Below, one piece after another: positions 8,626 through 17,171 of a stretch of DNA of 24,000 nt. Position 1 is the first letter of the stretch; every line of letters starts with the position of its first letter. The DNA comes from Deltaproteobacteria bacterium GWF2_42_12 (GTDB taxonomy: Bacteria > Desulfobacterota > GWC2-55-46 > UBA9637): NCBI GenBank assembly GCA_001797665.1, contig MGQA01000002.1, forward strand, positions 1,195-25,194, read 5' to 3'. A program made the position numbers and the translations under genes. The notes beneath the pieces are model-generated. The model ran no database searches and had not been told where the DNA came from. It worked only from the letters and a program-made list of their open reading frames with translations.

Positions 8626-9924
8626 TTAAAAGACAAAATCAAGTTTAACTATGCCCAGGTCCCCCTCGCCACCTGTGGTATGCAGCGCCCCTTCGATAGT
8701 AAGCTTTATATTTGCGCGAACCAGCGCCAACAAGCTTACAACCACTTCATCTTTATTTTCCTTCTCATGTTCTATATCAGCTACTCCATACCTCACCGCT
8801 GCAATAAGCCAAGGATAAATGGCAAGGTCGGCTTCAGAAAAATAGGAACTTACAGAGGTATCACTAAAATTGCCACTCGGATTACTATGCTCCCCCTGAA
8901 TAACCGCGCCAAACAGATTAAAAATTTTATAATTGAAGTCAAAGGTAAAGCCATACCTATAGAAATTATCGTCATACGTGCTGTTTGAAACAACCACTTT
9001 ATTTTTGCCTGAATAACCTATTACGCCAACATATAGCGATTTTTCATCCTTTACCTCTGGCAGGACATCTTCTTTGTCTGAGATAAGGCCAGAACCATCC
9101 AGGCCAATGCCGCCGAACTTATATCCAACCTTAAGACAGGCGTCCTTTGTCGTATTATTGTCTGCAGAGTTGGTTGTGGAATCTGTCTTCCCTGTACCGT
9201 TGCCATTAACTATGCCCACTGCATATTCTAAGCGGCTCTCTATAATGCCATCTATCTCTATGCCTCGCTGATTTGAGAAGTTAAAGCTGTTTTTCCCGAC
9301 TGTAAACGTATTAATGAGATATGGCGCATATGTTAAACGGCGATTATTGGAGACCGGGACTGCTGACGGTTCGAATTGACCGATAGTCACATTCAAAAGG
9401 CGGTCAGGAAGCGAGCTGCTGAATGTATCATTAAACTTCAGGAAAAAACGCCACAAACCGCCGAACTCATTTCCACTTCTAATAAGAGAAACACTGCCAA
9501 AAAAAGATACATCTTCACCGAGTGTTCCAGCTGATTCAAGCGCTATGGTACTTGGAAAGGTAAAATCATGCTTTACCCGAGAGTTTACATCATATCGGTA
9601 AAACAAACTTCCAAATAAAGAAAGGGGTATTGCCCCAGGAATCTCGCCTGGCCAGATTCCTTCAGGCCAAACCTCTTTCCACGCCGGAGCGCCCAAGCTG
9701 ACAGGTTTCTCCTTAACATAGCGTTCGTCAACCTCTGGGATCTGGTATCCGTTTCTTCTGAACGCCTCACCAAAGGCATTAAGTTTTGGAAAAGCTGCAT
9801 GACATGTTGTGCAGCTCGTCTTATACTTTCTTGCAAAGGCTGGTATAGCCTCTGCATTTGTCCTAAAAATGGAAGTTATTAAACAGATAATTAAAATAAT
9901 AAGTATAGATTTAATCAGTCTCAT
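8626..9924 (-). CDS. Outer-membrane beta-barrel protein with N-terminal CxxCH haem-binding motif
   Basis: Signal peptide (MRLIKSILIILIICLITSIFRTNAEA), a CTTCH motif about 12 residues into the mature protein, alternating beta-strand-like sequence, and a C-terminal ...VKLDFVF aromatic terminus typical of OMPs. Confidence 0.6.
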   Translation of the reverse strand: MRLIKSILIILIICLITSIFRTNAEAIPAFARKYKTSCTTCHAAFPKLNAFGEAFRRNGYQIPEVDERYVKEKPVSLGAPAWKEVWPEGIWPGEIPGAIPLSLFGSLFYRYDVNSRVKHDFTFPSTIALESAGTLGEDVSFFGSVSLIRSGNEFGGLWRFFLKFNDTFSSSLPDRLLNVTIGQFEPSAVPVSNNRRLTYAPYLINTFTVGKNSFNFSNQRGIEIDGIIESRLEYAVGIVNGNGTGKTDSTTNSADNNTTKDACLKVGYKFGGIGLDGSGLISDKEDVLPEVKDEKSLYVGVIGYSGKNKVVVSNSTYDDNFYRYGFTFDFNYKIFNLFGAVIQGEHSNPSGNFSDTSVSSYFSEADLAIYPWLIAAVRYGVADIEHEKENKDEVVVSLLALVRANIKLTIEGALHTTGGEGDLGIVKLDFVF

Positions 9925-10917: not shown

Positions 10918-11493
10918 TTATAATACATCTCCGCAAAAATTACGATATTCGCAGTCAAGACATTTGGCCGGAGAATTTACCGGAGGCGGAATTTGCTGGC
11001 AGTGTATCATTTTTCGGATATCGTCTAATAAATTTTTTGTTTCCTCTTTGACTTTGCCGGTTAAATCAAAAACCACAGCATCCTCTTTTGGAATTAAGTA
11101 TACAAAACCCTTATCAACATTGCGATTATATACATCTTCCAAAATTATAGCATAACCCAAAAGCTGATAAAGATGATTTTTGTGCGGCTGAGAGGTTGTA
11201 TATTTAAAATCCACAGGATAATAAGAATCTTTGGTTTTAATTAGCAAATCCACCTTGCCGGATAAAGCATATCTCTCAGAATATAATTGCTTATGAAATT
11301 CTCTCGTGCCGCTGGATAAGCCGTATTCCTTAAGTTTCCTTCTGTTTTCTAATCTGTCTATCTTATCCTCTGCTATCTTTCCATATTCCATCTTAAAGGT
11401 TGCCTTTTTCTCAACAGGCATAACATAGTTATAGAACACAACCCTTTGACAATAGACAAACTGTTTAAGGTCGCTAACCCTGAGATGAATCAT
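10918..11493 (-). CDS. cas4: CRISPR-associated Cas4 (RecB-like exonuclease with Fe-S Cys cluster)
   Basis: N-terminal ...DLKQFVYCQR..., DFKYT (D..K nuclease motif), QLLGYAIILE (QhxxY) and C-terminal CLDCEYRNFC. The preferred start is the ATG at 11493 (MIHLRVSDL..., AGGAAA upstream). The ORF is open up to 11580 and overlaps the cas2 3' end. Confidence 0.85.
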   Translation of the reverse strand: MIHLRVSDLKQFVYCQRVVFYNYVMPVEKKATFKMEYGKIAEDKIDRLENRRKLKEYGLSSGTREFHKQLYSERYALSGKVDLLIKTKDSYYPVDFKYTTSQPHKNHLYQLLGYAIILEDVYNRNVDKGFVYLIPKEDAVVFDLTGKVKEETKNLLDDIRKMIHCQQIPPPVNSPAKCLDCEYRNFCGDVL

Positions 11494-11752
11494 CTCTATT
11501 TTCCTGTATGAGTTCCCTTTTGGCATTGATGTCTTTTTCACAAACAGGGAGCATAAGGAGTTTTCCGGCTTTATCGCCAATGAGAAAGGAAAGCTTTAAA
11601 AAAAGTTCTTCGCGCTTATTTTTGCCCAACGTGCCTGAAAATCCGCTAAATTGAATCCTTTGAAGCCCATAGTCTTTGCAGGTCTCTGCCACCTTATTGC
11701 GGATGCCGTCGTCTTCTATGTCATAGAAAATATAAACAGTATGTTCTCCCAT
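11474..11752 (-). CDS. cas2: CRISPR-associated endoribonuclease Cas2
   Basis: 92 aa with VYIFYDIEDD...RNKV...YGLQRIQFSGFSG, the canonical Cas2 ferredoxin-fold signature. It lies between cas1 and cas4. Confidence 0.85.
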   Translation of the reverse strand: MGEHTVYIFYDIEDDGIRNKVAETCKDYGLQRIQFSGFSGTLGKNKREELFLKLSFLIGDKAGKLLMLPVCEKDINAKRELIQENRDDSSQG

Positions 11753-11777
11753 AATTAGTTGAAAAATGCTTTTATAT

Positions 11778-11904
11778 AGTTCACGCTCAAAAATTGCACA
11801 GATGCAAGGCGCCGAGGAGCGAGCAGCGGAGCATACGCTTTTAGGTATGTGAGCAGCGCAGCGACGAAGGCAACGCAGCAGATGGGCATTTTTCAGCGTG
11901 AACT
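11778..11904. repeat. ~127-bp palindromic (MITE/REP-like) element, copy B, between cas1 and cas2
   Basis: The ends AGTTCACGCTCAAAAATTGCACAGATGC and GCAGATGGGCATTTTTCAGCGTGAACT are inverted repeats. It is the same family as 1896-2023, in opposite orientation. It starts 2 nt after the cas1 stop and ends 25 nt before the cas2 ATG. Confidence 0.8.
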
Positions 11905-11906
11905 AA

Positions 11907-13100
11907 TTACCACTTAAACCTGAACGCCTTATATTCTCTCCTGCCGCTTAAAAAAGCCGATAGGTTTCTTGCCTGCATCTGGATAATAGACCTGATTTTA
12001 TATTTCTTGCCTTCAAATGTTTCCTGGCTTTCCAGCCTTTCTATAATTTTGCTTCCCATTGTCTTTCTTGTTTCCTCTTCAATCAATCCATTTTTCATGT
12101 TAATGGATTCTCCGAGGTTGATATGGGCAATTACAACCTTATCAACAACAGGCTGGCGGAATTCTTCAATCAGATCCAGAACAAGAGACGGCTTGCCGGG
12201 CCTGTCCACATGCAGAAATCCCGCAAATGGCTCAAGACCTGCATTTATAATTGCTCCCCAGACATGCGAATAGAGAATGCCATAACCATAATTTAAGAGA
12301 GAGTTTACCTTATCCACTGCCCCTCTTGTCTCACGGCCGAAAAACTCAACCTTTCCTGCAATAATCTCTTTGACCGCGCCCCAATATAACCTGCCTGATA
12401 TACCCTCTATTGCCATCAAACCACCTCTTGCATCTTCAATATTTTGCCCATCAATATTATCTACCTGTCCGCTCATCTTTTTAATATCATCAGCAATTCC
12501 TTCAAGTTTATTAAATCTGTCAATATCTACGGTCTTAATATACTTGCCAAAATATCTTATAAGCCTTTCCTGATTTACAATCTTTCCTTCTACAACCGCC
12601 TTTGAGAATTCAAGCCCCCTTTCATCATTAAACGCCATAATCTGCTCTCTTCTGGATACAACCGTTGCGGAGAGCATGGGCGAGGAAAGCATTGCATACG
12701 GTTTGCCGCCATTTGTCAAAAAATTCAGTCTTATCCCCCTTTGGCATAACTCTTCAACAAGGTCAGAGGATAATGACATCCCACGAGAGGCGACAATAAC
12801 CTCATTCAGTCTAAAAAAGGGAAATTCATAAATAACCTTACTGCTCTTTTTTACAATAAGGCGTTCACTCTTTTTACTTAAGAAGATGCCAAAACCTGAC
12901 AGAACTATTTGCGACGAATCTCCGCTCTGCACAAGCGAAATCCCATCGTCAACAAATATTTCATCATCAATATTTTTGTCAATCAGTTGCGGGACTGGCT
13001 CTGCTTCTCCTGTAAAGAGATTGAACTGTGCTGGCGGGAGTTTTTCCTCCGGTTGATATTCCGGATGGATGCGGAGGATTTTTGATGTTTCATTATCCAT
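11907..13100 (-). CDS. cas1: CRISPR-associated integrase Cas1 (with ~60-aa acidic N-terminal extension)
   Basis: NSLLNYGYGIL and GFLHVDRPGKPSLVLDLIEEFRQPVVD motifs. The ATG at 13100 is preceded by GAGGAGG. The ORF-track start at 13175 lacks an SD. Confidence 0.9.
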   Translation of the reverse strand: MDNETSKILRIHPEYQPEEKLPPAQFNLFTGEAEPVPQLIDKNIDDEIFVDDGISLVQSGDSSQIVLSGFGIFLSKKSERLIVKKSSKVIYEFPFFRLNEVIVASRGMSLSSDLVEELCQRGIRLNFLTNGGKPYAMLSSPMLSATVVSRREQIMAFNDERGLEFSKAVVEGKIVNQERLIRYFGKYIKTVDIDRFNKLEGIADDIKKMSGQVDNIDGQNIEDARGGLMAIEGISGRLYWGAVKEIIAGKVEFFGRETRGAVDKVNSLLNYGYGILYSHVWGAIINAGLEPFAGFLHVDRPGKPSLVLDLIEEFRQPVVDKVVIAHINLGESINMKNGLIEEETRKTMGSKIIERLESQETFEGKKYKIRSIIQMQARNLSAFLSGRREYKAFRFKW

Positions 13101-13194: not shown

Positions 13195-13431
13195 ATGAAG
13201 TTAACATATGATCCGAGATACAACATAGCTTATATTCGCCTGCATGAAAAACCAGCACAAGTGGAGACTGTGAAAATCAGCGATGAACTGAACATAGATT
13301 TGGCGCCTGATGGAACGGTCTATGGCATAGAATTGCTGAATGCCAATGAACAGTTGAAAAAAGAGGATGAGGGTAAACTCCTTGTTATTAATGAATCTAC
13401 AGGCAAGACAGCCGAAGTATCATTAGCATGA
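13195..13431 (+). CDS. DUF2283-like small protein (YuzE-like)
   Basis: MKLTYDPRYNIAYIRLHEKP...IDLAPDGTVYGIELLNA is the typical DUF2283 pattern. It is on the opposite strand to the cas genes and ends 26 nt before the first CRISPR repeat. Confidence 0.6.
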   Translation: MKLTYDPRYNIAYIRLHEKPAQVETVKISDELNIDLAPDGTVYGIELLNANEQLKKEDEGKLLVINESTGKTAEVSLA

Positions 13432-13457: not shown

Positions 13458-13860
13458 GTTACAGTTAAGGCTCTTTGAAAATATGGCGTGAAACATACAC
13501 AAATCCGAGCTCATGGTTGCCATTTTCAATCGTTACAGTTAAGGCTCTTTGAAAATATGGCGTGAAACAACTTTCGGGGCGGCCTTCCGCACAGATTGAG
13601 GAACGTTACAGTTAAGGCTCTTTGAAAATATGGCGTGAAACTTCTGAGCAGGCGGCCTACCGCAGGTATAAGAAGGAGTTACAGTTAAGGCTCTTTGAAA
13701 ATATGGCGTGAAACTTATAAAGGCGGGATGCGCCTTGCACCGCTTCACACAGTTACAGTTAAGGCTCTTTGAAAATATGGCGTGAAACATCTGCCCACGC
13801 ATATCTCCTTCGAGAAGATCGAAGTTACAGTTAAGGCTCTTTGAAAATATGGCGTGAAAC
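13458..13860 (+). CRISPR. CRISPR array: 6 identical 37-bp repeats (GTTACAGTTAAGGCTCTTTGAAAATATGGCGTGAAAC), 5 unique spacers of 37/36/36/37/35 bp
   Basis: Repeats counted directly at 13458, 13532, 13605, 13678, 13752 and 13824. The repeat is non-palindromic, as expected for type II. The strand is tentative and rests on the anti-repeat geometry; see findings. Confidence 0.97.
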
Positions 13861-13949
13861 AGCTATTGTTTTGCTGGAATTTCAAAGGGATTTTCAAAAA
13901 CAATTTATAAAATTTCCGCAAGACCATTTTTTGAAACAAACCTTAAGGG

Positions 13950-14080
13950 GTTTGCGAAATTTTAAAAGAGCCTTAATTGTAAAACGCCTATACAGTGAAG
14001 GGATATACGCTTGGGTTTGTCCAGCCTGAGCCTCTATGCCAGAAATGGCGCCTTCATCGTGGGTTAGGACATTTAATTTT
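13950..14080 (+). ncRNA. Candidate tracrRNA: 36-nt anti-repeat plus ~95-nt structured tail
   Basis: 13950-13985, GTTTGCGAAATTTTAAAAGAGCCTTAATTGTAAAAC, is an imperfect reverse complement of the full repeat, with 12 contiguous matches (AAAGAGCCTTAA). The downstream tail has hairpins (e.g. GCCA-GAAA-TGGC) and ends in ATTTAATTTT just before the cas9 stop. Strand and ends are not established. Confidence 0.5.
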
Positions 14081-14085
14081 AAAAA

Positions 14086-16329
14086 CTATTCAGCACTGTT
14101 TGCTTTTGTCAGCTTGGTGGCAGAGACAGTTCTTGTTTTTCCATCACTACCAACAACTGCTTCTATCGTAGGAGATGTTCCGAGTTTTTTTATTCTATAG
14201 ATTGCGTCTTCACCTTCAACTGTAACCATATCTCTTCGTTTTAAGGTAAATGAAACTCTCCCATTAGGCTGCGGTGGTGGTTCTATGAAGTGTTTTGACA
14301 GTCTCGGATTCTTTCGCTCATATGCTTTTTTCTTACCTTTTTCATCAAGATAAACATCCACGCCAACATTATGGACATTCGTCTTAAAAACATTATTATT
14401 GATTCTTATCATCTGCCCTGGCCCGGTTCCTTTAATGCTGCATTTAAGGCTCATAACCAATTCATTCTTCTTAATGCAAAAACCTGCTTCCTTTGCCTCC
14501 TTGTCTGTTAAACATTTTCCTTTTTTCGTATCAAATCGTTTAAAAGCCTCTTTTAGTTTTTCACGATATGTCTCGGAAATAACATCGTCTTCTTTACCGC
14601 ACTCAATCTCTGTAACCATAAATCTTCTGGTAATAATGCCCTTCTTATAAGACAGTGGGTTTCTATCATGCAATGCAGAGCCCTTGCTGCCTTTATCCCT
14701 TTTAAATTCTATCGGTTCAGGAAGGTGTTTTTCAGAGTCAAACCCTCCACCTTTATTATATTTTGGCTTAAGGGTCATATCCACCAATCCATCATCACTA
14801 TACCCTTTCCTTGAAGCAAGGATTACAGCATCAAGGGCATGATGAAGGGTGTTGCCTCTTTCCTTTTTAAATCCCCACCACCTCCTGAAATATGCAGTGT
14901 ATATGCCGCTCTGCCTCTCTATGGGCAACTTTTTATTGCCGGCAGACTCTCTTAGTCTGTCCCTCATATATCTCCAGCCGATAGAGGCATGGGACATGTA
15001 TTTATTAAAATCTACTGTATTGATATTTCGTGCGTCCTCAAGAATCTTTTTCTTTAAATCATTCTTCATGAAGGCTATTATTTCGGGTTTAGGCGAGATT
15101 CCACTTTCTAACGGAGTTCTCCCTTTTTTATTCTCATTACATACAGCGCAACATGCTACTAAATTTGCAAAGATATTTAAGCCCCCGGCCTTTCGGGGAA
15201 ATATATGGTCATCATGCGCATTGGATATGTCAATAGATTTTCCACAGTAGATACATCTACCATCCGTTTCTCGAAGAAGGGCTTCCTTTCTGGTCTCTTT
15301 GCCTTCCCTGGGCCCTTTACCATATTCTTCTTTTGCCAATCGTTTTTTCCCCTGTGTTTTGGCTGCTATATCAAAATTGTTGCTCTCCATTACCACCTTA
15401 TTGACAGTAAATTTGGGCAATATCTCGTCTTTAATAACAGCAAGGACATTCTCTATTTTTGTTTTTAAGGATGGCGCAAGACGGAAAACCTTTCGTTCCT
15501 CTTTGCTATGCTCAGTATGTTCAAGGATATGTTCTTTGCAAAAGACCGTTCTACCCGAAAGCTTGTTATCCGCTATATCATAAACCTGCTTCCTAATATG
15601 TTCATCAGTCTTATGTTTTCTGAAAAATGATTTAACTTCTTCCCTCCTGTTTTTATCAAGCACAGCATCTTTGAGATTATCCTTTTCAGATTGTTCTATA
15701 GGGAAAAATCTGACTATATTTTCTATAAGCAAATCTCTCACATTCTTTCTGAGCGGCGTATTAACTCCGCAATCTTCTACCTTACATTTAGTTAAAATCC
15801 TATTATTGAATCTTTTAGGTCGGTACTGTTTATTAAAAATCCTTTCAACCCTTTTTATCTGCTCCTCGGTTGCTCTTCCTTCAATCATTGCTTTATGGAC
15901 ATCTTTTACGACTTCTTTCCTGTGCCTTGAATTTCTTTTTGTCTCTTCCCATTCCTGTTTCTCTTTTTCCCACTGTTTGCGCTCTTCCACATCCATTGCC
16001 TCTATTTCTTCGGAAGTCTTTTCTTCAGGCATATCAGCATAATCATATCCTCTTTTATGGGCAAGGCTGTAAACCGTTTCAAATGTTGCTGTGGATTCGT
16101 TATATCCAATACTTTTTAGATAGTTTTTTAATTCACGCAGCCGCTTTTTCTTGGTTTGAGCGGTTCTTCTGATACCTCTTTGCTTTCTGCGATCTTTGAG
16201 AATACCAGCGACATCGTCCCGCATCTTCAGTCTGTTTGCATATAATACCTGATTATGCCTTCGGTCAACAACTGCAAGACCGGTATATTTGCCGCCGTAA
16301 TCAATGCCTAAAACAAGTTCTCTTTCCAT
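14086..16329 (-). CDS. cas9: Compact Cas9-like RuvC/HNH effector nuclease, 747 aa
   Basis: Ruv[18 protein letters not shown] (D10); Arg-rich bridge helix [26 protein letters not shown] (aa 45-70); Ruv[12 protein letters not shown] (E315). HNH CIYCG...[13 protein letters not shown]...[18 protein letters not shown] (D374/H375, N398). Ruv[17 protein letters not shown] (H497, D500). It sits next to the array, the anti-repeat and cas1/cas2/cas4. Confidence 0.9.
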
Positions 16330-16344
16330 TTTTATTTACCTTTG

Positions 16345-16374
16345 ATTATGACGATGGGGATCACCATATCTCAA
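16345..16374 (-). promoter_or_regulatory. Possible sigma70-type promoter for cas9
   Basis: On the minus strand, TTGAGA - 18 nt - CATAAT ends 15 nt upstream of the cas9 ATG. This rests on a motif match only. Confidence 0.25.
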
Positions 16375-16416: not shown

Positions 16417-16977
16417 CTACTGATTTATGGTTTTTAATATGTCCTCAAAGGTTTTCAGAAAATCCTTATTGCCAATTGATGCGTCAAACTCCTTTAACCA
16501 ACCCTGTATATATCTAATGTCAATATCAGGATTTTTTAAGAGGATTGTCCTTGCATCCTCTAAATCCCTCGGCCGTCCTGCAAATATTTTGTGTATTATG
16601 ACATCTTCTACAGAGGCAAAGCATACTTCCTGATTGAGAATATTTATACTCTTTGCCCTCTTTATCGCCTCTGTTTCATAAGGCGTAAATGAGAATATAA
16701 AGTCAACCCGTATGCCTGTAGTTTCATCCAGCGCCGGCAAGACCATAGTCTGCTTGACGAATGATTCTATGTCTTCTGGTATGGGCTTGAGTGGTATTTT
16801 TTGAAGGATTGCAAGAAGTTGATTAAGGTGATTTGTATCAACGCCGAGGGTTATATCAATATCTCTTGTGAGCCGCGGTTCTCCATACAGCAATACAGCC
16901 TGTCCGCCTATAATCATGTAGGGAATATTGCACTTAACAAGCGCTGCGCCTATCCTTGCGAGGATTTCTTCAAACAT
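16417..16977 (-). CDS. Minimal nucleotidyltransferase-fold protein (AbiEii/DUF6036-like, toxin-like)
   Basis: The N-terminal IIGGQAVLLYGEPRLTRDIDI pattern (GG-x-A...R-x-T-x-D-x-D) is typical of pol-beta superfamily minimal NTases. A small overlapping ORF precedes it. Confidence 0.55.
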   Translation of the reverse strand: MFEEILARIGAALVKCNIPYMIIGGQAVLLYGEPRLTRDIDITLGVDTNHLNQLLAILQKIPLKPIPEDIESFVKQTMVLPALDETTGIRVDFIFSFTPYETEAIKRAKSINILNQEVCFASVEDVIIHKIFAGRPRDLEDARTILLKNPDIDIRYIQGWLKEFDASIGNKDFLKTFEDILKTINQ

Positions 16978-17171
16978 GAATTGAGCACCTGTGCTATCTT
17001 TATATCAACTTCTATTCCTTCTAATGGTTTCTTGGGAGGCAATATTCCGAGTTTTATCCCTTCATTCCAGAGAGATTCAAATATGCGCATAGAGTAACTA
17101 AAAGAAAGCCTTCCCTCTTTTTTCATGATTGTGTCTTCAAATTTTTTTAATAGTTGGGTATCTTTTATCAT
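16950..17171 (-). CDS. Small hypothetical protein (73 aa), possible partner/antitoxin of the downstream NTase
   Basis: The ORF overlaps the NTase start by 28 nt in a TA-like two-gene layout. No recognisable motif. Confidence 0.4.
   Translation of the reverse strand: MIKDTQLLKKFEDTIMKKEGRLSFSYSMRIFESLWNEGIKLGILPPKKPLEGIEVDIKIAQVLNSCLKKSSQG

What the first reader, a model, noticed from the sequence alone, without database searches (positions are those of the whole stretch)
14086..16329. Effector keeps every catalytic motif but has a drastically reduced recognition lobe and extra Cys/His clusters
Seen in sequence: D10 (nt 16300-16302), E315, D374/H375 (nt 15205-15210), N398 and H497/D500 are all present, in Cas9 order (RuvC-I, bridge helix, REC, RuvC-II, HNH, RuvC-III, C-terminal domain). 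Only about 235 aa separate the Arg-rich helix (ending ~aa 70) from RuvC-II (~aa 308). In SpCas9 the equivalent span is over 600 aa. That span also contains a highly charged E/K stretch (aa 100-165). The HNH carries CxxC...CxxC (C359/C362, C394/C397), a zinc-finger HNH type common in IscB and small HNH nucleases. A second possible metal site, C182-x4-C187 ... C264-x2-H267, sits in the mini-REC. There is no PLMP-type N-terminal domain, since RuvC-I starts at residue 5. Inference: much of the missing protein scaffold may be replaced by guide RNA structure, which fits the long structured tail next to the anti-repeat.
Basis: partly seen in the sequence, partly recalled or inferred. Interest (0 to 1): 0.85.

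Follow-up and report, generated by a model that had tools for sequence, protein, structure and literature searches.

The report
Known compact Cas9d (type II-D) nuclease

Summary
The ORF 14086-16329 (-) encodes 747 aa with D10, E315, D374/H375, N398 and H497/D500. It has a ~238-aa span between bridge helix and RuvC-II, an HNH CxxC...CxxC cluster, and a C182/C187/C264/H267 cluster.

It is not new. The protein is 743/747 identical to Cas9d-MG34-1 (PDB 8W2S, 8W2Z, 9AUF, 8ZQ9, 8ZDR) and passes NCBI's Cas9d model. The exact sequence is GenBank OGP48943.1, from a groundwater Deltaproteobacteria MAG, annotated "hypothetical protein".

The 114-nt tracrRNA tail beside the gene (13967-14080, +) is identical to the published MG34-1 sgRNA scaffold. 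A 6-repeat CRISPR array and cas1-cas2-cas4 complete the locus.

Published work already shows:
- D10A/H375A is catalytically dead, and D10A was engineered as the nickase in working base editors.
- The REC2 CCCH site binds zinc and contacts the sgRNA.
- The HNH zinc-finger motif was noted from sequence analysis.
- sgRNA stems fill the space that REC domains occupy in SpCas9.

Verdict: observation confirmed, interpretation supported, already known, low interest.

The parts
14086..16329 (-). cas9d gene, 747 aa plus stop. A natural allele of Cas9d-MG34-1 (type II-D Cas9).
   Evidence: ORF. It is 743/747 identical to PDB 8W2S/8ZQ9/8W2Z/8ZDR/9AUF. NCBIfam NF049971 CRISPR_Cas9d scores 530.7 bits against a cut-off of 375. 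The exact sequence is OGP48943.1.
16300..16302 (-). Codon for D10, the RuvC-I catalytic Asp.
   Evidence: Position. Invariant in 27/27 homologues. The D10A/H375A double mutant is inactive, and D10A was engineered as a predicted nickase for base editing.
16120..16209 (-). Arg-rich bridge helix, about aa 41-70. Boundaries are approximate.
   Evidence: Pfam RRXRR covers aa 4-65. R47, R48, R51, R54, R55 and R63 are invariant. The bridge helix anchors the guide seed in the published structure.
15409..16119 (-). Compact REC region, about aa 71-307. It contains REC1, the REC linker with the FNNR motif (aa 174-177), and REC2. Boundaries are approximate.
   Evidence: The span is 238 aa here and 212-250 aa in 25 of the 26 aligned homologues, with one outlier at 162 aa. 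The published REC size is 208 aa.
15943..16032 (-).
   Evidence: Composition. Deleting residues 100-129 slightly enhances cleavage (PMC11903963).
15529..15786 (-). REC2 CCCH zinc site: the codons of C182, C187, C264 and H267 lie within this span.
   Evidence: Coordinates. C182/C187/C264 are invariant and H267 is kept in 26/27. The site is solved as zinc-binding and RNA-contacting, and mutations compromise or abolish cleavage.
15385..15387 (-). Codon for E315, the RuvC-II catalytic Glu.
   Evidence: Position. Invariant in 27/27 homologues. The catalytic role is inferred from the canonical RuvC motif.
15112..15255 (-). HNH nuclease domain core, aa 359-406. It holds the Cys4 cluster (C359, C362, C394, C397), D374/H375, N389 and N398.
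   Evidence: Pfam HNH_5, HNH and HNH_4 hits. hhalign against SpCas9 pairs D374/H375 with D839/H840, N389 with N854, and N398 with N863. The Zn-finger motif is described in PMC9755519.
14830..14841 (-). RuvC-III motif HHALDA, containing H497 and D500.
   Evidence: Position. Invariant in 27/27 homologues. Aligns to SpCas9 H983/D986.
14089..14694 (-). WED and PAM-interacting domains, about aa 546-747. Boundaries are approximate. All published PAM contacts (K649, N651, K715, R698) are unchanged from MG34-1.
   Evidence: The only differences from MG34-1 are at residues 529, 532, 544 and 549.
13948..14080 (+). tracrRNA. The imperfect anti-repeat starts at about 13948. The 114-nt stretch 13967-14080 is the published sgRNA scaffold tail. 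Its 3' end lies 5 nt from the convergent cas9d stop codon.
   Evidence: Exact match to the MG34-1 active sgRNA in Supplementary Data 3 of PMC9755519. Sequence read.
13458..13860 (+). CRISPR array: six identical 37-nt repeats and five spacers of 35-37 nt. It is transcribed on the strand opposite to cas9d.
   Evidence: Repeats (0 matches expected by chance). The first 17 nt of the repeat equal the crRNA part of the published sgRNA. Orientation follows PMC9755519.
11907..13100 (-). cas1, 397 aa counted from the ATG.
   Evidence: Pfam Cas_Cas1 at 1.3e-66. TIGR00287 scores 240 bits. The exact sequence is annotated as Cas1, HAG49969.1.
11474..11752 (-). cas2, 92 aa.
   Evidence: Pfam CRISPR_Cas2. 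TIGR01573 scores above its cut-off.
10918..11526 (-). cas4, 202 aa.
   Evidence: Pfam Cas_Cas4/PDDEXK_1. TIGR00372 scores 111 bits against a cut-off of 65.
16345..16374 (-). Promoter-like site (TTGAGA-18-CATAAT) 16 nt upstream of the cas9d ATG.
   Evidence: Consensus scan, 10 of 12 matches. This is a pattern match only, not evidence of function.

Best explanation
The ORF is the effector of a complete type II-D CRISPR-Cas locus: cas9d, a convergent tracrRNA, a CRISPR array, and cas1-cas2-cas4. It is a natural allele of the characterised Cas9d-MG34-1, from a groundwater Deltaproteobacteria MAG.

Mechanism, as shown for the 99.5%-identical enzyme:
- crRNA (about 20 nt from the 3' end of a spacer plus the 5' part of the repeat) pairs with the tracrRNA anti-repeat.
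- The long tracrRNA tail folds into stems and a pseudoknot. These occupy the space that REC domains fill in larger Cas9s, and together with the small REC1/REC2 they form a hybrid RNA-protein target-engagement module.
- A CCCH zinc site in REC2 (C182/C187/C264/H267) and the REC linker clamp sgRNA Stem 3.
- WED and PI residues read an NGG PAM.
- HNH (D374/H375/N398, with a Cys4 zinc-finger motif) cuts the target strand. RuvC (D10/E315/H497/D500) cuts the non-target strand. The break is staggered.

Inferred rather than shown here: that the window's allele, which differs by four substitutions at residues 529-549, behaves identically to MG34-1.
For: - Identity: 743/747 residues match five PDB entries of Cas9d-MG34-1. 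The NCBIfam Cas9d model scores above its cut-off.
- Guide RNA: the repeat 5' part and the 114-nt tracrRNA tail are identical to the published active sgRNA.
- Locus: CRISPR array and cas1/cas2/cas4.
- Conservation: catalytic and metal-site residues are invariant or kept in 26 of 27 homologues.
- Motif mapping: hhalign maps the HNH and RuvC-III motifs onto SpCas9 D839/H840/N854/N863/H983/D986.
- Literature: D10A/H375A is dead. D10A-based base editors work. The CCCH zinc site is solved and mutated. sgRNA stems replace REC. PAM contacts. NsCas9d H387 and D10 sit at the active sites. The HNH Zn-finger motif is described.
- Spacer diversity: a strain variant has the same array flanks but entirely different spacers, which fits active adaptation.
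Against: - Nothing substantive argues against this reading.
- The four substitutions relative to MG34-1 (G529, S532, R544, K549) are untested.
- The HNH domain was unresolved or only docked in the MG34-1 structures. Zinc at the HNH Cys4 cluster therefore rests on the motif and its conservation, not on observed density in this protein.
- No protospacer was found for three spacers.
- The single-strand MFE fold of the tracrRNA is no better than shuffled sequence (z = -0.91). This is unsurprising for a pseudoknotted, protein-bound fold.
Confidence: 0.97

Rival explanations
1. It is a transposon-borne IscB/OMEGA nuclease rather than a CRISPR effector.
For: It shares the RRXRR and zinc-finger HNH features of IscB. 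PDB IscB chains match aa 262-405 at about 1e-12. The NCBIfam guided_IscB model hits at 4.1e-27.
Against: The IscB model scores 95 bits against a cut-off of 175, while the Cas9d model passes its cut-off. There is no PLMP domain, and a stop codon lies 3 codons upstream of the ATG. A CRISPR array, an anti-repeat tracrRNA and cas1/2/4 are adjacent. No TnpA or IS200/IS605 family appears among the window ORFs scanned.
Confidence: 0.01
2. It is a truncated or decayed canonical Cas9 (an assembly artefact or pseudogene) that has lost most of its REC lobe.
For: It is only 747 aa. The generic Cas9 model TIGR01865 scores below its cut-off, at 70.9 against 100.
Against: The same 747-aa sequence occurs on independent assemblies. 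Homologues are 699-796 aa with the same 212-250-aa REC span, apart from one 629-aa outlier with a 162-aa span. The 99.5%-identical protein is an active nuclease.
Confidence: 0.01
3. It is a real Cas9d, but this allele is functionally altered (weakened, or changed in dynamics) by its four clustered substitutions at residues 529-549, between the RuvC-III catalytic motif and the phosphate-lock loop.
For: The differences cluster within 21 residues. G529 and S532 are minority states in the family.
Against: These positions vary freely across the family. They are not among the published catalytic, PAM or RNA contacts. The allele persists alongside an intact array and adaptation genes.
Confidence: 0.03

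Closest known systems
Cas9d-MG34-1 (type II-D Cas9; Goltsman et al. 2022, PMC9755519; structures 8W2S/8W2Z/9AUF in PMC11706934 and 8ZQ9/8ZDR in PMC11903963)
   Same: 743 of 747 residues, the same length, and the same repeat. The 114-nt tracrRNA tail is identical. The locus type is the same, with cas1/cas2 and an array. All catalytic, zinc, PAM and RNA-contact residues are unchanged.
   Different: Four substitutions, written window to MG34-1: G529E, S532P, R544M, K549R.
[quoted passage not shown]
   Same: About 71% identity with the same domain order and a compact REC. Its catalytic H387 and D10 align to H375 and D10 here. The Cys/His clusters are conserved.
   Different: It is 762 aa, accepts an NRG PAM, and has small REC indels. 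Its HNH domain was resolved in the catalytic state, unlike in MG34-1.
IscB (for example OgeuIscB, PDB 7XHT/7UTN)
   Same: RuvC split by a zinc-finger HNH, an Arg-rich helix, and reliance on a large structured RNA that substitutes for a REC lobe.
   Different: IscB has an N-terminal PLMP domain, a minimal REC (38 aa), an omega RNA of about 200 nt, and no CRISPR array or adaptation genes. The IscB HMM scores below its cut-off here.
Type II-A/II-C Cas9 (SpCas9, CjCas9, NmeCas9)
   Same: The same RuvC-I / bridge helix / REC / RuvC-II / HNH / RuvC-III / WED-PI order and the same catalytic motifs. Guidance is by crRNA:tracrRNA.
   Different: Their REC lobe is 354-624 aa, against about 208 aa here. 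SpCas9 has no residues matching the HNH Cys4 cluster in my alignment, and Goltsman et al. state that known II-A/B/C Cas9s lack the HNH and REC zinc motifs. Their sgRNA scaffold is shorter. They usually make blunt cuts, against staggered cuts for Cas9d.

Membership tests
Type II-D Cas9 (Cas9d) | The protein matches the curated Cas9d family model above its cut-off. | tested here: met
   NF049971 CRISPR_Cas9d scores 530.7 bits against a cut-off of 375, E = 1.2e-158.
Type II-D Cas9 (Cas9d) | Near-identity to a characterised member of the family. | tested here: met
   743/747 identical to the MG34-1 PDB chains. About 71% identical to NsCas9d, P0036.
Type II-D Cas9 (Cas9d) | RuvC-I/II/III split by an HNH domain, with all catalytic residues present. 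| tested here: met
   D10, E315, D374/H375, N398 and H497/D500 are present and invariant or kept in 26 of 27 homologues. The HNH and RuvC-III motifs map to the SpCas9 catalytic residues.
Type II-D Cas9 (Cas9d) | A compact REC lobe (about 170-210 aa) containing a conserved zinc finger. | tested here: met
   [quoted passage not shown] C182/C187/C264 are invariant and H267 is kept in 26 of 27. Zinc binding itself was not measured here; it is solved for MG34-1.
Type II-D Cas9 (Cas9d) | An adjacent CRISPR array and a tracrRNA with an anti-repeat and a long structured tail. | tested here: met
   Six repeats at 13458-13860. The tracrRNA tail at 13967-14080 is identical to the published sgRNA scaffold.
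Type II-D Cas9 (Cas9d) | RNA-guided dsDNA cleavage with a 3' NGG PAM and staggered ends. | not testable with these tools
   Shown experimentally for the 99.5%-identical MG34-1. All PAM-contact residues are unchanged here.
IscB / OMEGA nuclease | An N-terminal PLMP domain. | tested here: not met
   The RuvC-I motif starts at residue 5, and an in-frame stop lies 3 codons upstream of the ATG.
IscB / OMEGA nuclease | The protein matches the IscB family model above its cut-off. | tested here: not met
   NF040563 guided_IscB scores 95.1 bits against a cut-off of 175.
IscB / OMEGA nuclease | An IS200/IS605 context with an omega RNA, and no CRISPR array. | tested here: not met
   A CRISPR array and cas1/2/4 are present. 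No transposase family appears among the window ORFs scanned.
Canonical Cas9 (TIGR01865 cas_Csn1, types II-A/B/C) | The protein matches the generic Cas9 equivalog model above its cut-off. | tested here: not met
   70.9 bits against a cut-off of 100, covering only aa 328-587.

The most novel reading that the evidence does not exclude
Among cas9d alleles that are at least 90% identical, substitutions fall into three blocks: aa 395-421, aa 529-549 and aa 669-745. The last block is the PI domain and includes R699G, next to the PAM-backbone contact R698. For each pair of adjacent blocks, all four allele combinations occur. This could reflect intragenic recombination that shuffles PAM-proximal and linker modules among coexisting groundwater strains to tune target engagement, rather than neutral strain variation or chimeric metagenome assemblies.
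Probability: 0.1. Interest if true: 0.3.

Novelty: already known. Interest (0 to 1): 0.08.

Why it matters
Cas9d matters as the smallest Cas9 subtype. It is an evolutionary intermediate between IscB and canonical Cas9, and a compact genome-editing chassis that fits in an AAV vector. All of that has been established since 2022-2025 on essentially this same protein.

The value of this check is to close the finding. It adds nothing beyond the literature, apart from documenting a natural four-substitution allele that GenBank still labels 'hypothetical protein'.

Tried and rejected
- Direct phmmer against SpCas9 gave only insignificant alignments. I replaced this with a family-profile hhalign, which aligned HNH through RuvC-III at E = 2e-4 and 45% probability. 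D10 and E315 were not covered, so they rest on invariance and the literature.
- Rfam at gathering threshold found no RNA family in the window.
- The MFE fold of the tracrRNA is not better than shuffles (z = -0.91). I did not use it as evidence; the fold comes from cryo-EM.
- I considered a third metal site formed by C577/C606/C618/C630 and rejected it. C577 and C618 are not conserved. C606 and C630 are replaced by Y/F/I/H/P/T in some homologues, which suggests buried positions rather than ligands.
- Exact 20-21-mer searches with the PAM-proximal ends of spacers 2, 3 and 5 in viral contigs found nothing.
- No gene encoding exactly P0014 was on record.
- I did not run a structure prediction or fold search, because experimental structures of a 99.5%-identical protein already exist.

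Full report
**Observation.** The minus-strand ORF at 14086-16329 encodes 747 aa from an ATG. An in-frame stop lies three codons upstream, so there is no hidden N-terminal extension.

- D10 (16300-16302), E315, D374/H375 (15205-15210), N398, H497/D500.
- The HNH cluster C359/C362/C394/C397.
- C182/C187/C264/H267 in the recognition region.

Residues 100-165 are 53% charged. The span from the end of the Arg-rich helix to RuvC-II is 238 aa. Pfam finds RRXRR at aa 4-65 and HNH models at aa 359-406.

**Identity.** A search of PDB sequences returns five entries that are 743/747 identical over the full length: 8W2S, 8W2Z, 9AUF, 8ZQ9 and 8ZDR. The only differences, written window to PDB, are G529E, S532P, R544M and K549R.

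These entries are Cas9d-MG34-1, solved by Ocampo et al. (PMC11706934) and by the authors of 'Insights into the compact CRISPR-Cas9d system' (PMC11903963). The enzyme was first described by Goltsman et al. 2022 (PMC9755519).

NCBI's Cas9d model NF049971 scores 530.7 bits against a cut-off of 375. The IscB model (95 against 175) and the generic Cas9 model (70.9 against 100) both fall below their cut-offs.

The exact sequence is GenBank OGP48943.1, 'hypothetical protein A2022_01700' of Deltaproteobacteria bacterium GWF2_42_12. The window corresponds to a 66.9-kb groundwater scaffold, and the same locus appears in a second, independent assembly.

**Locus.**
- Six identical 37-nt repeats with five spacers of 35-37 nt lie at 13458-13860 on the plus strand.
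- The first 17 nt of the repeat, and the 114 nt at 13967-14080, are identical to the crRNA part and the tracrRNA part of the published active MG34-1 sgRNA.
- The tracrRNA is convergent with cas9d and ends 5 nt from its stop codon.
- On the other side of the array, on the minus strand, lie cas1 (11907-13100), cas2 (11474-11752) and cas4 (10918-11526).

This is the architecture that the papers show for MG34-1.

**Conservation test (my own).** One database search found 36 relatives. I aligned 27 full-length sequences, including the window protein, at 34-76% identity to it.
- D10, E315, H375, N398, H497 and D500 are invariant, and D374 is kept in 26 of 27.
- C182, C187 and C264 are invariant, and H267 is kept in 26 of 27.
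- C359, C362, C394 and C397 are invariant.
- The REC span is 212-250 aa in all but one homologue.

A profile alignment of this family to SpCas9 pairs D374/H375 with D839/H840, N389 with N854, N398 with N863, and H497/D500 with H983/D986. The alignment has E = 2e-4 and 45% probability, so it is supportive rather than decisive.

- *Catalytic residues.* The D10A/H375A double mutant is the catalytically dead control and was the form used for the target-bound cryo-EM complex. D10A was made as a predicted nickase and works in base editors. In the 71%-identical NsCas9d structure, H387 faces the target-strand scissile phosphate and D10 lies beside the non-target strand in the RuvC pocket. These two residues align to H375 and D10 here.
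- *REC size.* The REC domain is 208 aa, against 623 aa in SpCas9 and 38 aa in IscB.
- *Charged stretch.* Residues 100-129 form a 'lid' whose deletion slightly enhances cleavage.
- *Second metal site.* C182/C187/C264/H267 is a solved, atypical CCCH zinc motif in REC2 that faces sgRNA Stem 3. The C264H and H267C mutations compromise or abolish cleavage. The REC zinc finger is also treated as conserved across type II-D Cas9s in the NovaIscB study.
- *HNH cluster.* The HNH CX(2,4)CX(27,31)CX(2,4)[C/H] zinc finger was described as a signature of Cas9d and HEARO/IscB enzymes. The pattern here is CX2CX31CX2C.
[quoted passage not shown] Stems 2 and 3, together with REC, form a hybrid 'RNA-coordinated target engagement module'.

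**Caveats.**
- The HNH domain is unresolved or only docked in the MG34-1 maps. None of the papers I read reports zinc density at the HNH Cys4 site of this protein, so that site rests on the motif and on invariance.
- The four-residue allele in this window has not itself been tested. Its variant positions vary freely across the family, and I found none of them among the catalytic, PAM or RNA contacts named in the sections I read.

**Rivals.**
- IscB is excluded by the missing PLMP domain, the sub-threshold model score, and the CRISPR/cas context.
- A truncated canonical Cas9 is excluded by the same-length sequences on independent assemblies, the uniformly small homologues, and the demonstrated activity of the near-identical enzyme.

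**Verdict.** However, this is the published Cas9d-MG34-1 system in its native groundwater genome. It is already known, and interest is low.

Noticed in passing
L003:1-700 (minus strand) compared with window 13458-13860: A strain variant of the locus (cas9d allele P0004, JGI sample 3300025308) has the same sequence flanking the first repeat. It carries 8 repeats and 7 spacers, none shared with the window's 5 spacers. This fits active, strain-specific spacer acquisition. Its tracrRNA differs at a few positions and matches the published MG34-16 scaffold.
   Followed up: partly
window 14086-16329 (protein residues 395-421, 529-549, 669-745): Among 747-aa cluster members at least 90% identical, substitutions fall into three blocks. 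For each pair of adjacent blocks, all four allele combinations occur. This indicates either intragenic recombination between strains or chimeric assemblies. The PI-domain block includes R699G/D700N, next to the PAM-backbone contact R698. G at position 699 is the majority state in the family.
   Followed up: partly
window 13569-13604 and 13642-13677: Spacers 2 and 3 share an in-register core, GGCGGCCT[T/A]CCGCA, and are identical at about 18 of 36 positions by my manual count. They may have been acquired from related targets. Exact searches with their PAM-proximal 21-mers found no viral contig.
   Followed up: partly
window 16417-17171 (-): Immediately upstream of cas9d lies a 186-aa AbiEii/DUF6036-type nucleotidyltransferase. 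A 73-aa ORF with no family hit precedes it and overlaps it by 28 nt. The arrangement looks like a toxin-antitoxin or Abi pair. It is conserved next to cas9d in all five related contigs I examined.
   Followed up: partly
window 13195-13431 (+): A small DUF2283 ORF (78 aa as called on related contigs) sits between cas1 and the array, on the array's strand. It ends 26 nt before the first repeat, so the array leader or promoter would have to overlap it, or be co-transcribed with it.
   Followed up: no
window 10918-13100 (-): The adaptation module is cas1-cas2-cas4. This Cas1 scores below the type II Cas1 model (82 against a cut-off of 120) and higher on the Cas4-linked and type I-C/I-D Cas1 models. 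One structure paper's introduction says type II-D systems lack Cas1/Cas2/Cas4, whereas this locus and the other papers show them. GenBank calls a 341-aa version of this Cas1 in the same MAG, against 397 aa from the upstream ATG.
   Followed up: partly
window 14086-16329 (-): The exact protein is still annotated 'hypothetical protein' in GenBank (OGP48943.1). Close relatives are annotated 'RRXRR domain-containing protein' or 'McrA'.
   Followed up: yes
window 8626-9924 (-): A 432-aa ORF has no hit in Pfam, NCBIfam or PADLOC. It is called as a gene on the related contig L001, downstream of cas4 and AMMECR1.
   Followed up: no
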